A stretch of 9,552 nt of DNA from a virus (IMGVR_UViG_3300014922_000029), one strand, 5' to 3'; shown: positions 1 through 6,893, counted from the first letter of the stretch. Notes: generated from the sequence alone by a model not told the origin. Numbers and translations are program-made.

Positions 1-181
1 CATCGCGCTGGCGCACCTGCATATCAGTAATGGTGGCGTTTGCCAGCTCCAGCTCTCTGGCTTTTTTATCGCGCTGCGCTTTGTAGGTGATGGCGTTATC
101 GCGGTAATGGTCTGTTGCCAGCCACAGCGATCCACAACCAAGCAGCAGGGCAATAAGCACGCCATACAGCACACGATTCAT
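1..181 (-). CDS. Rz: Rz i-spanin, N-terminal 60 codons only (3' end runs off the window start)
   Basis: Reverse complement of 1-181 starts with ATG at 181..179 and reads [60 protein letters not shown] with no stop before the window edge. N-terminal transmembrane segment followed by the [15 protein letters not shown] motif matches lambda Rz as I remember it. Absent from the ORF track because it is incomplete. Confidence 0.8.
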
Positions 182-182
182 A

Positions 183-296
183 TCACCACCAACGGATTGC
201 CCAGACCAGAACAGCAATTGCCACAATACGAATGGCAAAAGCTGCCGCTCTTGTTAAATCCAGACTGGCTGGCGTCTCCACTTCAATGCCTTTCAT
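183..296 (-). CDS. Hypothetical 37-aa peptide with C-terminal hydrophobic segment ([37 protein letters not shown]), translationally coupled to Rz
   Basis: ATG at 296..294 preceded by GAGG about 9 nt upstream. Its TGA stop (185..183) is separated by a single nucleotide from the Rz ATG (TGA-T-ATG). Not in the ORF track because it is short. No family recognised. Confidence 0.35.
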
Positions 297-394
297 AATG
301 GACAACCTCAGAAAGAATCTTTTATACTTCCTCACAGGGAAAGCACCTCCCTCACCATAATTTCTCCCTTGCCTTACTCAAGGTCAGAAAACAC

Positions 395-428
395 AAAACC
401 CCGCTTGCTGCCAACAAACGGGGTTTTT
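395..428. terminator. Bidirectional intrinsic terminator downstream of the endolysin gene
   Basis: aaaaccccg (395-403) pairs with cggggtttt (419-427) around a 15-nt loop. T-runs follow on both strands (tttttacttttatt on plus, ttttgtgtttt on minus). Confidence 0.5.
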
Positions 429-517
429 ACTTTTATTCACTTAGGTTTTGCCAGTTCACAGGACTTCGTGTTATCCGCCCGCGTTGACCAACGGCATTTT
501 TCAGCAAAATATTCTGC

Positions 518-1057
518 TTATCTGTCGATTCCCCAGCACACCAGCGCGCTCTCCTGGTCACGACGGAATACCTGACCGTAGCAGTTATTTGAGCGAATAC
601 GGCAGTCTCTGCCACCGTCCTTAATCCACCAGCGAATCGCCTCACATGCTCCANNNNNNNNNNNNNNNNNNNNNNNNNNNNNNNNNNNNNNNNNNNNNNN
701 NNNNNNNNNNNNNNNNNNNNNNNNNNNNNNNNNNNNNNNNNNNNNNNNNNNNNNNNNNNNNNNNNTCAGCGGCACTCTGATGTTTTTCTCCACCCACGCC
801 AGCGCTTTATCACGCTCAATGGCGTTAACCCGGTCGCATTTTCCCTTCGACAGCTTCATGCCAGGAATAACAGGCTTACCATCCACCCGGGTGGCTCCAC
901 GGCAGATGGTCCAGATCCCCGCACCATCACGGTATGCCATGGTGTGGTTACCTTCTTTTTCGTCAAGAAACTGGTCGAGGATTTCAGGCGCAGACGCCCC
1001 TGCACCAATCAGCGCCAGAACGGCAGCCGACAGGCCGTATCTGATTTTTGCGTTCAT
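518..1057 (-). CDS. R: Phage endolysin, T4-lysozyme-like muramidase with N-terminal SAR (signal-anchor-release) domain; resembles the Qin prophage lysozyme RrrQ/YdfQ
   Basis: 179-aa ORF with ATG at 1057. N-terminus MNAKIRYGLSAAVLALIGAGASAP is a Gly/Ala-rich weakly hydrophobic SAR-type segment, followed by the lysozyme core (EGNHTMAYRDGAGIWTICRGAT). It lies directly after a pinholin. The ORF spans the N run 654-765 in frame, so the central part is unknown. Confidence 0.8.
   Translation of the reverse strand: MNAKIRYGLSAAVLALIGAGASAPEILDQFLDEKEGNHTMAYRDGAGIWTICRGATRVDGKPVIPGMKLSKGKCDRVNAIERDKALAWVEKNIRVPLXXXXXXXXXXXXXXXXXXXXXXXXXXXXXXXXXXXXXXGACEAIRWWIKDGGRDCRIRSNNCYGQVFRRDQESALVCWGIDR
654..765. 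other. Run of 112 N (assembly gap or masked sequence) inside the endolysin gene
   Basis: Literal n characters in the sequence. Confidence 1.
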
Positions 1058-4586: not shown

Positions 4587-4616
4587 NNNNNNNNNNNNNN
4601 NNNNNNNNNNNNNNNN
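4587..4616. other. Run of 30 N (gap or masked sequence) in the non-coding stretch
   Basis: Literal n characters in the sequence. Confidence 1.
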
Positions 4617-4885
4617 AGAAAGCCCCTCCGGAGAGGGGCTGGAGAGTGGCGCTATGTGCCATTGCATGGTGCCGGGTGCCTCCCGGTGAGTTCAGCCCGG
4701 TGACACTAAACCCGCATATTCTCGCTTACGATCATCAAAGAGATCATACCGTTCACCAGTCGCCCCTCCGCACAGGGGGATTCACCATGCGAAATTTTTT
4801 TAACAAATGCTCAGTCTGACAGGCAACTGTCAACTTACTGAATTGTGAGGAATTTAACACTTCACAGCACAATATCTTTCCAGCG

Positions 4886-4927
4886 CCCCAAAATCATCAG
4901 GACAGGAGAAAATCTTCTCCCCCTGTC
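4886..4927 (-). terminator. Possible terminator hairpin overlapping the lipoprotein stop codon
   Basis: gacaggagaa (4901-4910) pairs with ttctcc(ccc)tgtc (4915-4927) around loop aatc, with a 3-nt bulge. On the minus strand it is followed by an interrupted T-run (cugaugauuuugg). Weak. Confidence 0.3.
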
Positions 4928-5354
4928 AGAGTTTAAAATCCAGCACGCCATTTCTAAATGCTTTATATACTCCTGAAGACGGTGGTGATGGTATATCAGC
5001 ATTCTTTACTGCATTCATCGCTTCACGACATAAATCGGGATCACCGCTTTCTCTTTTAACCTGTAGCAGAAGACCATTCGGGGCCATATACATTCTCAGT
5101 GAACACTCTTTTCCTGAATACTTACTCGCATCCTTTAACTGTTCTTCTATGGCTTTCCTGACCTGAATGGCATACTGCCTGATTTCTTCACTGGCATCAG
5201 GGGTACGTTCCGATGAGCTCAAATTTTGCGACTTTATTAATTTATCTGAGTGATACAGAGAAGCATCATAATTATTTGTCGATACATCTTTTGTGCAGCC
5301 AGTTGTCAGACTGGCTAATATCAAAACAAGAACTGGTACAGCACGGCAATACAT
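4926..5354 (-). CDS. Lipoprotein with a TolA C-terminal (domain III)-like domain; predicted Lol-sorted outer-membrane lipoprotein
   Basis: 142-aa ORF; ATG at 5354 with GGAG Shine-Dalgarno about 9 nt upstream. Signal peptide MYCRAVPVLVLILASLTTGC with lipobox L-T-T-G-C and no Asp at +2. The C-terminal 85 residues (IRQYAIQVRKAIEEQLKDASKYSGKECSLRMYMAPNGLLLQVKRESGDPDLCREAMNAVKNADIPSPPSSGVYKAFRNGVLDFKL) align along their length with E. coli TolA domain III as I recall it (...YAGQIKSAIESKFYDASSYAGKTCTLRIKLAPDGMLLDIKPEGGDPALCQAALAAAKLAKIPKPPSQAVYEVFKNAPLDFKP). The gene and its upstream region are AT-rich relative to neighbours. Confidence 0.75.
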   Translation of the reverse strand: MYCRAVPVLVLILASLTTGCTKDVSTNNYDASLYHSDKLIKSQNLSSSERTPDASEEIRQYAIQVRKAIEEQLKDASKYSGKECSLRMYMAPNGLLLQVKRESGDPDLCREAMNAVKNADIPSPPSSGVYKAFRNGVLDFKL

Positions 5355-5632: not shown

Positions 5633-5709
5633 TGGACCGCCATCGAGGACTCGAACCCCGCGCAGCCAGCTTCGAAGGCTGGCGCTCTATCCCGATGAGC
5701 TAATGGCGG
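5633..5709 (-). tRNA. tRNA-Arg, anticodon UCG (reads CGA/CGG)
   Basis: Reverse complement folds as a cloverleaf by hand: acceptor ccgccat/atggcgg, D stem gctc/gagc, anticodon stem ccagc/gctgg with loop cuUCGaa, T arm cgggg-ttcgagt-cctcg, discriminator U, encoded CCA. Unusual C1:G72 first pair. Confidence 0.8.
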
Positions 5710-5718
5710 TATGTGATA

Positions 5719-5794
5719 TGGTGGCCCTTGCTGGATTTGAACCAGCGACCTGGCGATTATGAGTCGCTCGCTCTCACCACTGAGCTAAAGGGCC
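5719..5794 (-). tRNA. tRNA-Ile2 type (anticodon CAU, lysidine-modified in vivo; formally could be tRNA-Met)
   Basis: Reverse complement ggccctttagctcagtggtgagagcgagcgactCATaatcgccaggtcgctggttcaaatccagcaagggccacca folds as a canonical cloverleaf and is near-identical in layout to E. coli ileX-type tRNA as I remember it; encoded CCA. Stx-type phages carry an ileZ-arg tRNA cluster at this position. Confidence 0.85.
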
Positions 5795-5834: not shown

Positions 5835-6893
5835 TCATCCGTTCTGACTGACTAAATTCTGAACTTCCCTGACCGTCTGCTCAAAACGCTCAGTCTCCAG
5901 CTCAACGCCAGTTGCACGACGTCCCAGCGCTATCGCTGCTTTGACTGTCGAACCTGACCCCATGAAGAAATCTGCAACCAGGTCACCCGGACGACTGCTC
6001 GCGCTGATTATCTGCTGCAGCATTTCTGCCGGTTTTTCGCACGGATGTTTCCCGGGATAGTACTGCACCGGTTTATGCGTCCACACATCGGTGTACGGCA
6101 CCTGCACCGTCACACCAAAATACCGCCGCAGATGCTTATATTCACTCTGCAGTTCCGTATACTGCCGGTTCAGTTCACTGTATGTGCTGACCAGTTGGTG
6201 ATGTGGCTTTTCCAGTTCTCCGCGCTGATGCTTATCTTCTGCCACCCGGGCAAACAGCGCCTGTAATTTCAGATAATCGCTTTCGTCCGGTAGCTGCCAC
6301 TGGCTGGCACTGAACCAGTGCGACACCATGTTTTTCTTTCCTGTGGCATCAGCAATCTGTTTTGCCGTTATCCCCAGGGCAGCACGCGCATCACGAAAGT
6401 AAGAAATCAGCGGGGCCATCACATGCTGTTTCAGTGCCCTGCCCTTCGCCTCATACCCGGCATCTTTCGGGCGATACGGCCCCTGATAATGTTCCGCGAA
6501 CAGAATGCGCTCTGTGGCGGGGAAATATGCCCTCAGGCTTTCCTTGTTGCACCCGTTCCAGCGTCCGGACGGCTTCGCCCAGATAATATGGTTCAGCACA
6601 TTGAAGCGTTCACGCATCATGATTTCAATGTCAGACGCCAGGCGATGGCCACAGAACAGGTAAAGACTTCCGGCAGGTTTCAGCACCCGCCAGAACTGCG
6701 CAAGACACTGGTCCAGCCACTTCAGGTAATCATCGTCGCCCTTCCACTGGTTATCCCAGCCCTCAGGCTTCACTTTAAAGTACGGCGGGTCCGTGACTAT
6801 CAGGTCAACAGAATTTTCGGGTAACGACCGGATAAATTCCAGGCAGTCGGCGTTGATTAACTCACAACTGGATATTTTTACAGTACTAAGCAT
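5835..6893 (-). CDS. DNA methyltransferase, beta-class amino-methyltransferase (DPPY catalytic motif near the N-terminus, FxGxG SAM-binding motif near the C-terminus); most likely N6-adenine
   Basis: 352-aa ORF with VTDPPYF at residues about 33-39 and DFFMGSGST near residue 310; this motif order defines the beta group. No restriction endonuclease gene nearby, so an orphan methyltransferase. Shine-Dalgarno at the ATG (6893) is weak. Confidence 0.85.
   Translation of the reverse strand: MLSTVKISSCELINADCLEFIRSLPENSVDLIVTDPPYFKVKPEGWDNQWKGDDDYLKWLDQCLAQFWRVLKPAGSLYLFCGHRLASDIEIMMRERFNVLNHIIWAKPSGRWNGCNKESLRAYFPATERILFAEHYQGPYRPKDAGYEAKGRALKQHVMAPLISYFRDARAALGITAKQIADATGKKNMVSHWFSASQWQLPDESDYLKLQALFARVAEDKHQRGELEKPHHQLVSTYSELNRQYTELQSEYKHLRRYFGVTVQVPYTDVWTHKPVQYYPGKHPCEKPAEMLQQIISASSRPGDLVADFFMGSGSTVKAAIALGRRATGVELETERFEQTVREVQNLVSQNG

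What the first reader, a model, noticed from the sequence alone, without database searches (positions are those of the whole stretch)
183..517. Endolysin and Rz are uncoupled by a terminator-containing spacer, and a 37-aa hydrophobic ORF is tightly coupled to Rz
In lambda and phage 21 the R and Rz genes abut. Here 337 bp separate them, containing a bidirectional terminator (395-428) and a 37-aa ORF with a C-terminal hydrophobic helix whose stop is one nucleotide from the Rz ATG (TGA-T-ATG), implying co-translation with the spanin. Candidates: an accessory lysis factor (spanin or holin modulator) or a toxic small membrane peptide.
Basis: seen in the sequence. Interest (0 to 1): 0.5.

Follow-up and report, generated by a model that had tools for sequence, protein, structure and literature searches.

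The report
Small membrane-protein gene before Rz
The gap between the prophage's cell-wall enzyme gene and its Rz lysis gene holds a real, widely conserved but unstudied gene for a tiny membrane protein, longer than first read (50 rather than 37 residues), which travels between phages together with an RNA hairpin placed just upstream of it.

Summary
On the minus strand, R (518-1057) and Rz (ATG 181) are 336 nt apart. The gap contains a 15-bp terminator hairpin (427-395) and a 37-aa ORF (296-183) whose TGA lies one base before the Rz ATG.

The ORF is a real gene. Its two main alleles differ at 23 of 114 nt, 19 of them at third codon positions (dN/dS about 0.03). It occurs in 1308 of 5426 complete E. 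coli genomes and is Sakai ECs1094, annotated "hypothetical". I found no paper on it.

The product is probably 50 aa, starting at GTG 335. The 13-codon extension is conserved as protein in divergent relatives. Its first codon is only ever GTG, ATG or TTG, and it has its own Shine-Dalgarno sequence.

The family (PHROG 4493, unknown function) extends to Salmonella, Klebsiella, Serratia, Pantoea and Achromobacter. A structurally conserved hairpin lay 33-67 nt upstream in all ten divergent loci examined. The gene sits before Rz, before a 60-aa lipoprotein, inside a myovirus baseplate operon, or after a tail fibre. That pattern fits a portable, moron-like cassette better than a dedicated spanin partner.

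"Uncoupling" of R and Rz is doubtful, because the operon lies downstream of an antiterminator Q gene. The function is unknown: most likely a late-expressed, tail-anchored inner-membrane accessory protein.

The parts
518..1057 (-). Endolysin R (SAR-type phage lysozyme; residues 98-135 masked by N at 654-765)
   Evidence: ORF. Pfam PF00959. Annotated 'lysozyme' in a 99.5% identical E. coli record.
429..517 (-). R 3' flank, conserved with R in more than 300 phage records. It contains the motif GGGCGGATAACACGAA (480-465), shared between E. coli and Salmonella loci.
   Evidence: query positions 1-200 (window 560-361) match at 89-95% identity in 320 phage records. Motif seen in the sequences.
395..427 (.). 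GC-rich hairpin with intrinsic-terminator form on both strands
   Evidence: A hairpin of -16 to -30 kcal/mol lies 33-67 nt before the start in all 10 divergent loci. 13 consensus pairs, 6 with compensatory changes.
336..394 (-). Leader: variable sequence followed by GGGAGG (351-346), the Shine-Dalgarno sequence for GTG 335. The SD is predicted to pair into a small hairpin (AGGGAGGUGCUUUCCCU).
   Evidence: Sequence, fold. A purine-rich SD lies 6-10 nt before the upstream start in all 10 loci (read).
183..335 (-). Small membrane-protein gene, 50 aa from GTG: [50 protein letters not shown]. It has a cationic amphipathic N-helix, an acidic linker with a near-invariant Pro (P22 is Ser in P0019; invariant in the alignments), and a C-terminal transmembrane helix ending in RWW.
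   Evidence: PHROG 4493, profile positions 14-54 of 56; helices 3-14 and 22-49.
183..296 (-). The 37-aa ORF as read by the first stage and as annotated in RefSeq (WP_000675931.1; Sakai ECs1094). It is a possible second translation start, with an internal SD GAGG at 309-306.
   Evidence: AGG is invariant in 10 divergent loci while neighbouring codons vary.
179..193 (-). Junction CGT TGG TGG TGA T ATG. The last codons of the small gene form an SD-like GGTGGTGA for Rz, with a 1-nt stop-start spacing.
   Evidence: TGA-N-ATG or TGA-N-GTG in all 78 of 81 unique contexts where a downstream ORF could be called.
1..181 (-). 5' part of Rz (i-spanin, lambda type). The embedded Rz1 lies beyond the window.
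   Evidence: Full-length 155-aa 'lysis protein' in L001. Rz1 annotated inside it in Sakai.
299..328 (+). Candidate antisense sigma-70 promoter (TGGACA, 18 nt, TATACT) pointing at the hairpin. It would give an antisense RNA of about 95 nt covering the SD and GTG start. Unproven.
   Evidence: 10 of 12 matches. The same positions score 8-10 of 12 with an 18-nt spacer in 10 divergent loci, by my reading. The bases are also constrained as codons.

Best explanation
The gap holds a portable cassette made of an RNA hairpin plus a gene for a small tail-anchored inner-membrane protein. The protein is 50 aa from GTG 335, with perhaps also a 37-aa form from ATG 296.

In this prophage the cassette lies at the R/Rz junction of a phage-21-type lysis cassette. 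The proposed working is as follows.
- The gene has no recognisable promoter of its own on its strand. It is therefore transcribed with the late operon by Q-modified polymerase, which ignores the hairpin (inferred).
- Ribosomes translate it and then terminate one base before the Rz ATG, over an SD-like GGTGGTGA made by its own Trp-Trp-stop codons. Rz translation is thus coupled to it (inferred from anatomy).
- The protein inserts with its cationic amphipathic N-helix on the cytoplasmic face and only RWW on the periplasmic side (predicted).

It is an accessory, non-essential late membrane protein of moron type, not a holin, an endolysin or a spanin. Its cellular target is unknown. My best guess is that it modulates an inner-membrane step of the late phase, either lysis timing or envelope disruption, or exclusion of incoming phage DNA.
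For: Real coding gene:
- 23 differences between alleles A and B, distributed 4/0/19 over codon positions. dN/dS is 0.03 and Fisher p is 9e-10.
- Divergent homologues at 45-60% identity have the same length and pattern.
- The sense frame is open in all 10 divergent loci. The antisense frame has stops in 3 of them.

50-aa form:
- The extension (K/N)Y(K/R)R(F/I)(F/L)LRL(S/T) is conserved with synonymous changes. pN/pS is 0.35, against 0.59 and 3.9 in the shifted frames.
- The first codon is GTG 33, ATG 5, TTG 2 and nothing else across 40 unique contexts.
- Each locus has an SD upstream of that codon.
- The PHROG 4493 profile includes the extension.

Cassette behaviour:
- The hairpin is conserved in structure with compensatory changes.
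- The family is found before Rz in E. coli and Salmonella, and in Pantoea before a 128-aa ORF with no Pfam hit that follows holin and a presumed endolysin.
- It is also found before a 60-aa lipoprotein, before a methylase and then Rz, between spike and gp25-like genes in four genera, and after a tail fibre.

Late-operon setting: Q lies upstream and all genes are co-linear. No sense-strand promoter-like site was found in the gap.

Coupling: a 1-nt junction in all 78 of 81 unique contexts where a downstream ORF could be called.

Fold: two helices, with the transmembrane helix at pLDDT about 88.
Against: - There are no expression data of any kind for either start codon.
- Selection on the extension is only moderate (pN/pS 0.35), from ten related sequences.
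- A classical moron has its own promoter upstream and a terminator downstream. Here the hairpin is upstream and no sense promoter is seen.
- A terminator inside a myovirus baseplate operon is awkward unless it is leaky or serves the other strand.
- The frequent position directly before Rz, or before an outer-membrane lipoprotein (77 of 81 unique RWW-type contexts), could still mean a specific link to outer-membrane disruption.
- Part of the C-terminal conservation (WW-stop) may reflect the downstream gene's ribosome-binding site rather than protein function.
Confidence: 0.5

Rival explanations
1. A dedicated lysis factor that works with the outer-membrane step. The small inner-membrane protein would regulate or assist the spanin. 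In phages that lack Rz/Rz1, it would partner the 60-aa lipoprotein as a minimal inner-membrane plus outer-membrane pair.
For: - It sits after the endolysin in at least four unrelated lysis-cassette types: S21 holin with lysozyme, HP1-type holin with lysozyme, 3TM holin with M15 peptidase, and lambda-S-type holin.
- 43 of 81 unique contexts are followed by Rz and 34 by the lipoprotein, always at 1-nt spacing.
- Stx-type prophages carry an unrelated 32-aa transmembrane ORF ending in IRWW at the same spot, intact in 18 of 19.
- The complete phage phiSTEC1575-Stx2k has no Rz homologue. It has only this ORF plus the lipoprotein after its endolysin.
Against: - The family also lies in baseplate operons of four genera and after a tail fibre.
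- Lambda, phage 21 and K-12 Qin lack it (and textbook knowledge).
- The shared RWW-stop may simply be a ribosome-binding site.
Confidence: 0.22
2. A type-I toxin-antitoxin-like or OOP-like antisense module. A sigma-70 promoter on the plus strand (299-328) would make an RNA of about 95 nt, ending at the bidirectional hairpin. That RNA would be perfectly complementary to the SD and GTG start of the small hydrophobic protein's mRNA. It would keep the peptide (and coupled Rz) silent, or trigger cleavage of the late transcript.
For: - The promoter-like site matches 10 of 12.
- Equivalent hexamers with an 18-nt spacer score 8-10 of 12 in all ten divergent loci, by my reading.
- The hairpin has as many or more U residues on the antisense side than on the sense side in most loci.
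- The hairpin always accompanies the gene at 33-67 nt. That leaves too little room for a sense promoter but fits an antisense terminator.
- The product is a small hydrophobic peptide.
Against: - The promoter bases are also codons 3-13 of the protein, and their conservation is explained by coding.
- The -35 element is weak (3-4 of 6) in the large LRLT subgroup.
- There is no Rfam match.
- No entry of the Hfq-CRAC sRNA table of Sakai matched this site's NC_002695.2 coordinates or flanking locus tags (PMC4104026). The table may use NC_002695.1 coordinates, so this absence is weak.
- No toxin promoter was found.
- Type I toxins usually have the transmembrane helix at the N-terminus.
Confidence: 0.13
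3. A prophage-expressed conversion gene, that is, a classical moron acting in the lysogen. An example would be a small membrane protein that blocks DNA entry of superinfecting phages.
For: - It has a moron-like distribution at different junctions.
- It is a small inner-membrane protein.
- The R/Rz junction carries other cargo in relatives: a methylase and a 696-nt ORF in PhiR5_1.
Against: - No sense-strand promoter was found in the gap. In several loci there are only 33-40 nt between the hairpin and the start.
- The hairpin would block read-in from upstream in a lysogen.
- There are no PADLOC hits.
Confidence: 0.1
4. Not functional as a protein. The ORF would be kept only because its 3' end supplies the Rz ribosome-binding site, or because the region is young.
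For: The WW-stop codons double as an SD-like sequence. Many copies are nearly identical.
Against: - dN/dS is 0.03 over the whole ORF at dS of about 1.7.
- Homologues at 45-60% identity in other genera keep the same architecture.
- The ALKS-type relatives do not overlap the downstream ribosome-binding site, yet are conserved.
Confidence: 0.04

Closest known systems
Morons of lambdoid and HK97-like phages (Juhala et al. 2000; for example HK97 gp15, lambda bor and lom)
   Same: An extra gene placed between two late genes that abut in relatives. It is associated with an intrinsic terminator, found at different junctions in different phages, and often encodes a small membrane protein.
   Different: No promoter of its own was recognised. 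The terminator is upstream rather than downstream. The gene is co-oriented with and stop-start coupled to the next late gene, so expression is probably late rather than lysogenic.
Dual-start holin/antiholin genes (lambda S105/S107, phage 21 S68/S71)
   Same: A small lysis-cassette membrane protein with two conserved in-frame starts, each with its own SD. The longer form carries extra N-terminal positive charge.
   Different: The extension is 13 residues with +5 charge, not 2-3 residues. There is a single C-terminal transmembrane helix. There is no similarity to any holin family (Pfam and PHROG). A separate S21-type holin is already present at 1476-1691. Use of both starts is not shown.
Two-component spanins Rz/Rz1 (Kongari et al. 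2018, PMC6139136)
   Same: The gene occupies the slot after the endolysin. It encodes an inner-membrane protein and is followed by a gene encoding an outer-membrane lipoprotein (embedded Rz1 here; a separate 60-aa lipoprotein elsewhere).
   Different: i-spanins are type II proteins with an N-terminal transmembrane helix and a coiled-coil periplasmic domain of about 100 residues. This protein has a C-terminal transmembrane helix and essentially no periplasmic part.
Type I toxin-antitoxin loci (hok/sok, ldr/rdl, tisB/istR) and lambda OOP antisense RNA
   Same: A small hydrophobic peptide, with a candidate short antisense RNA that starts near the peptide's start codon and ends at a bidirectional terminator.
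   Different: There is no evidence that the antisense RNA exists. No toxin promoter was found. The peptide architecture differs (N-terminal cationic helix, C-terminal transmembrane helix). There is no Pfam or Rfam match.

Membership tests
PHROG 4493 (phage protein family of unknown function) | Significant profile match over the whole protein | tested here: met
   E 5.5e-16, residues 1-37 aligned to profile positions 14-54 of 56. The unmatched first 13 profile positions correspond to the GTG extension.
Holins (Pfam and PHROG holin families) | Sequence match to a holin family | tested here: not met
   No Pfam or NCBIfam hit at E up to 1. The PHROG hits are all 'unknown function'.
Holins (Pfam and PHROG holin families) | Forms lethal membrane lesions that release or activate the endolysin | not testable with these tools
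   Needs expression and lysis assays. A bona fide S21-type holin (PF04971, E 7e-33) is already present at 1476-1691.
i-spanin (Rz-like) | N-terminal transmembrane helix followed by a periplasmic, largely helical or coiled-coil domain long enough to meet the o-spanin | tested here: not met
   The transmembrane helix is residues 22-49 of 50, and only RWW follows the hydrophobic core. There is no PF03245 or PHROG spanin hit for this ORF.
Moron (Juhala/Hendrix definition) | Extra gene between two genes that are adjacent in related phages | tested here: met
   rrrQ and rzpQ overlap by 4 nt in K-12 Qin. The family is found at four or more different junction types.
Moron (Juhala/Hendrix definition) | Own sigma-70 promoter upstream and factor-independent terminator downstream of the gene | tested here: not met
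   No sense-strand promoter-like site in 182-517. The hairpin is upstream, and the gene runs straight into the next gene.
Moron (Juhala/Hendrix definition) | Expressed from the repressed prophage | not testable with these tools
   Needs RNA or protein data from lysogens.
Type I toxin-antitoxin | Small hydrophobic toxic peptide | tested here: inconclusive
   The peptide is hydrophobic, with one transmembrane helix. Toxicity was not tested. No Pfam toxin family hit.
Type I toxin-antitoxin | Antisense or divergent sRNA complementary to the toxin mRNA translation-initiation region | tested here: inconclusive
   A promoter-like site at 299-328 (+) and a bidirectional hairpin fit this. However, there is no Rfam hit, no match to this site in the Sakai Hfq-CRAC sRNA table (coordinate version uncertain), and the same bases are coding.
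Intrinsic (rho-independent) terminator | GC-rich stem-loop followed by a U-run | tested here: met
   15-bp stem, -20 kcal/mol, with U-rich tails on both strands. Compensatory changes across loci. Termination efficiency was not measured.

The most novel reading that the evidence does not exclude
The ORF would belong to an unrecognised class of phage late membrane proteins made in two forms from conserved tandem starts: a +5-charged 50-aa form and a 37-aa form. A cis-antisense RNA ending at the hairpin would control it, and it would act at the last step of lysis. It would tune or license outer-membrane disruption by Rz/Rz1. In Rz-less phages such as phiSTEC1575-Stx2k, it would form with the 60-aa lipoprotein a minimal, non-spanin route through the outer membrane.
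Probability: 0.12. Interest if true: 0.8.

Novelty: new variant of a known kind. Interest (0 to 1): 0.5.

Why it matters
Phage lysis of Gram-negative cells is usually described as a three-part system of holin, endolysin and spanin. This gene would be a fourth. It is conserved, under strong purifying selection and unstudied. It is wired stop-to-start into the spanin gene and is present in about a quarter of complete E. coli genomes, including O157:H7 Sakai and other Shiga-toxin strains.

If it affects lysis timing or envelope rupture, it bears on toxin and phage release from STEC. If it is a mobile membrane-protein cassette with its own antisense control, it is a compact new example of how phages move accessory genes between late operons.

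In practical terms, current annotation starts the gene 13 codons too late in thousands of genomes.

Tried and rejected
- **Antisense ORF 232-360 (+), 42 aa.** It looks conserved between alleles A and B (pN/pS 0.15) only because its third codon positions coincide with those of the sense frame. It has stops in 3 of 10 divergent loci and no conserved start. Rejected.
- **K-12 Qin identity.** Qin has a different Rz type (DUF2514) and no spacer. The window is a Qin-like or Stx-like lambdoid prophage, not Qin.
- **Known prophage sRNAs.** AgvB and AsxR lie 3' of PR' (PMC4104026). PasA and PasC lie between the esterase and holin genes, and PasD is related to STnc100 (bioRxiv 10.64898/2026.05.13.724894). 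None is at the R/Rz gap. Rfam gave nothing credible there.
- **Literature searches.** Searches by accession, locus tag and peptide strings found no paper.
- **Profile and structure libraries.** PDB sequence search, PADLOC, Pfam and NCBIfam gave no hits.
- **Searches that found nothing.**
  - The 37-aa query was too short for two tools.
  - An alignment was too divergent for the search for related loci.
  - A degenerate DNA pattern found nothing in genome contigs.
  - A KWW-specific pattern found nothing in viral or metagenome contigs.
- **Sense-strand promoter between hairpin and start.** Only matches of 8 of 12 or weaker were seen, none conserved between loci. Several loci leave only 33-40 nt.

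Full report
**Anatomy**

The lysis genes are on the minus strand.
- An S21-type holin lies at 1476-1691 (PF04971).
- A YdfR/DUF1327 gene lies at 1121-1471.
- The lysozyme R lies at 518-1057 (PF00959). It is partly masked by N at 654-765.
- Rz has its ATG at 181 and leaves the window (PHROG 13 'Rz-like spanin', E 4.9e-22).

The R-Rz gap is 336 nt. It contains the strongest terminator-like hairpin in the first 1.8 kb. This hairpin sits at 427-395, has 15 pairs, and carries U-rich tails on both strands. The gap also holds the 37-aa ORF at 296-183. Its TGA is followed by one T and then the Rz ATG.

**Is the ORF a gene?**

A 99.5% identical E. coli record annotates it as a hypothetical protein, WP_000675931.1. 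Phage GER2 and O157:H7 Sakai prophage Sp4 (ECs1094) do the same. DNA matching the ORF is present in 1308 of 5426 complete E. coli genomes, and 799 of these hold it at full length.

In IMG/VR loci two main alleles exist. They differ at 23 of 114 nt. Nineteen differences are at third codon positions and none at second positions. The four amino-acid changes are all I/L/V swaps. Nei-Gojobori dN/dS is 0.03 at dS of about 1.7, and Fisher p is 9e-10.

The antisense frame that shares third positions also looks conserved (pN/pS 0.15). However, it acquires stop codons in 3 of 10 divergent relatives, while the sense frame is open in all ten.

Exhaustive HMMER and word-indexed searches find relatives at 45-60% identity in Salmonella, Klebsiella, Serratia, Pantoea, Cronobacter, Enterobacter, Yersinia, Citrobacter and Achromobacter. 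All have the same layout. The family is PHROG 4493, of unknown function. It has no Pfam, NCBIfam, PADLOC or PDB match. I found no paper that mentions it by accession, locus tag or sequence.

**The start codon**

In every divergent locus the frame is open for 11-13 further codons. These read (K/N)Y(K/R)R(F/I)(F/L)LRL(S/T)(I/V). The changes between loci are typical of coding sequence: AGA/CGA, CTG/TTG, TTG/TTA/CTG and TCC/TCG/TCT. pN/pS is 0.35, against 0.59 and 3.9 in the two shifted frames.

The codon that heads this extension is GTG in 33, ATG in 5 and TTG in 2 of 40 unique contexts, and never anything else. GTG-to-ATG and GTG-to-TTG switches occur even within closely related alleles. A purine-rich Shine-Dalgarno sequence lies 6-10 nt upstream of it in each locus. 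In the window this is GGGAGG at 351-346, predicted to sit in a small hairpin.

Gene callers already use this start for the 56-60-aa relatives. The window's product is therefore most likely the 50-aa protein from GTG 335.

The annotated ATG 296 keeps its own GAGG. This is an invariant, rare AGG codon in all ten divergent loci, placed 6-9 nt upstream. A second, shorter product is therefore possible but unproven.

AlphaFold2 predicts two helices, at residues 3-14 and 22-49, joined by a low-confidence acidic linker. The first helix is cationic and amphipathic. The second is a transmembrane-length hydrophobic helix. By the positive-inside rule the N-terminus should be cytoplasmic, with only RWW outside. 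This is a prediction, not a result.

**A travelling cassette**

In all ten divergent loci a GC-rich hairpin (-16 to -30 kcal/mol) lies 33-67 nt before the start. Its sequence differs between loci but its structure is kept. It has 13 consensus pairs, 6 of them with compensatory changes.

What follows the gene varies.
- Among 81 unique RWW-type contexts, 43 run into Rz and 34 into a 60-aa lipoprotein (PHROG 7528, unknown function). The spacing is one base in all 78 contexts where a downstream ORF could be called.
- Relatives also precede a DNA methylase that is itself followed by Rz.
- They lie between the gp138-like spike and the gp25-like sheath initiator in myovirus-type prophages of Klebsiella, Serratia, Enterobacter and Achromobacter.
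- One follows an S74 tail-fibre gene in Cronobacter.
- Tandem copies of two subtypes occur.

This is the distribution expected of a moron-like mobile gene, not of a dedicated partner of one protein. Against that, the slot just before Rz seems to attract such genes. Stx-type prophages carry an unrelated 32-aa transmembrane ORF there, also ending in IRWW-stop-N-ATG and intact in 18 of 19 copies. The complete phage phiSTEC1575-Stx2k has no Rz homologue at all. After its endolysin it has only this ORF plus the lipoprotein.

**The terminator and 'uncoupling'**

The R 3' flank and hairpin are conserved with R in 320 phage records. The window carries a Q antiterminator gene (PF03589, 7468-8289), and everything downstream of it is co-linear. 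Established lambda biology says that Q-modified RNA polymerase reads through intrinsic terminators across the late operon. I therefore infer that R, the small gene and Rz are still co-transcribed in lytic growth.

No sense-strand promoter-like site exists in the gap. In several relatives there is not enough room for one. In a lysogen the hairpin would insulate the small gene and Rz from stray upstream transcription.

**An alternative role for the hairpin**

The scan finds a plus-strand promoter-like site at 299-328 (TGGACA, 18 nt, TATACT; 10 of 12 matches). It points at the hairpin. By my reading of the sequences, the equivalent positions score 8-10 of 12 with the same 18-nt spacer in all ten divergent loci. 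The hairpin's antisense U-tail is usually at least as good as the sense one.

This would give an antisense RNA of about 95 nt covering the SD and GTG start, an arrangement like hok/sok or lambda OOP. Four points count against it.
- The same bases are codons 3-13 of the protein, so their conservation has another explanation.
- The -35 element is weak in the largest subgroup.
- Rfam has nothing there.
- No entry of the Sakai Hfq-CRAC sRNA table matched this site's NC_002695.2 coordinates or flanking locus tags. The table may use the earlier record version, so this absence is weak.

I keep this as a minority hypothesis.

**Comparison with known systems**

The protein fails the defining features of holins, having no family match while a true holin is present. 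It also fails those of i-spanins, because its transmembrane helix is at the wrong end and it has no periplasmic domain. It meets the positional definition of a moron but not the promoter and terminator layout. It resembles dual-start holin genes only in having two conserved starts. It resembles type I toxins only in being small and hydrophobic.

**Verdict**

The finding is real and the gene is uncharacterised. It is not an unannotated discovery, since it has been listed as a hypothetical ORF since the Sakai genome. Its tie to the spanin is not exclusive. The added value here is:
- the corrected 50-aa product;
- the breadth of the family;
- the conserved hairpin-plus-gene cassette;
- the conserved stop-start junction, whose Trp-Trp-stop codons double as the next gene's ribosome-binding site;
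- two testable ideas, a dual start and an antisense RNA.

Confidence that it encodes a protein is about 0.9. Confidence in the accessory, portable late membrane-protein reading is about 0.5. The function remains open.

Noticed in passing
window 4610-4819 (-), 5636-5794 (-): A full-length STnc100 sRNA (167.7 bits) and two tRNA genes lie between the Q gene and the sialate esterase gene. A 2026 preprint relates STnc100 to the prophage sRNA PasD.
   Followed up: partly
window 465-480 (-): The motif GGGCGGATAACACGAA in the R 3' flank is conserved between E. coli and Salmonella loci whose lysozyme genes differ. Its core resembles a lac-operator half-site, probably by chance. Its function is unknown.
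   Followed up: no
L224 2740-2841; L225-L242: Stx-type prophages carry a different 32-aa ORF, MAEKLSTWKFILIWLVFVIMVSGYFIGQIRWW. It lies directly before Rz with the same TGA-N-ATG junction. It is intact in 18 of 19 copies and has an amber codon in phage Stx2_14040. It is not annotated.
   Followed up: partly
L243 (phiSTEC1575-Stx2k) 20829-22647; L059 3149-3331: This complete Stx2k phage has no Rz homologue (tblastn with three Rz types). After its M15 endolysin come the small transmembrane ORF and a 60-aa lipoprotein with an LVGC lipobox (PHROG 7528, unknown function). These could be its route through the outer membrane.
   Followed up: partly
L085 1860-2090; L088 2300-2560; L220 3501-3829: Two subtypes of the family, ending in ALKS and in RWW, occur in tandem before Rz. 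The 28-aa 'MSAELIRAM...' proteins in databases are the truncated second copy.
   Followed up: partly
L091, L222, L244, L246 around 3000: In myovirus-type prophages of four genera, the family with its hairpin sits between the gp138-like spike gene and the gp25-like sheath-initiator gene. This places a terminator-like hairpin inside a baseplate operon.
   Followed up: partly
window 654-765: A run of N masks the middle of the lysozyme gene, so R cannot be fully checked in the window. A 99.5% identical record shows an intact 177-aa lysozyme.
   Followed up: yes
window 4926-5354 (-) and 5835-6893 (-): A TolA/TonB C-terminal-domain protein and an N6/N4 DNA methylase lie in the region between Q and the esterase gene, that is, in the moron insertion zone downstream of Q.
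   Followed up: no
L087 2593-3117 (Sakai ECs_1092): The Sakai annotation starts Rz 57 nt too early, overlapping the small ORF. PGAP records start it one base after the small ORF's stop.
   Followed up: yes
window 484-513 (+): A second plus-strand promoter-like site (TTGACC, 18 nt, AATATT; 9 of 12 matches) points antisense into the 3' end of R.
   Followed up: no
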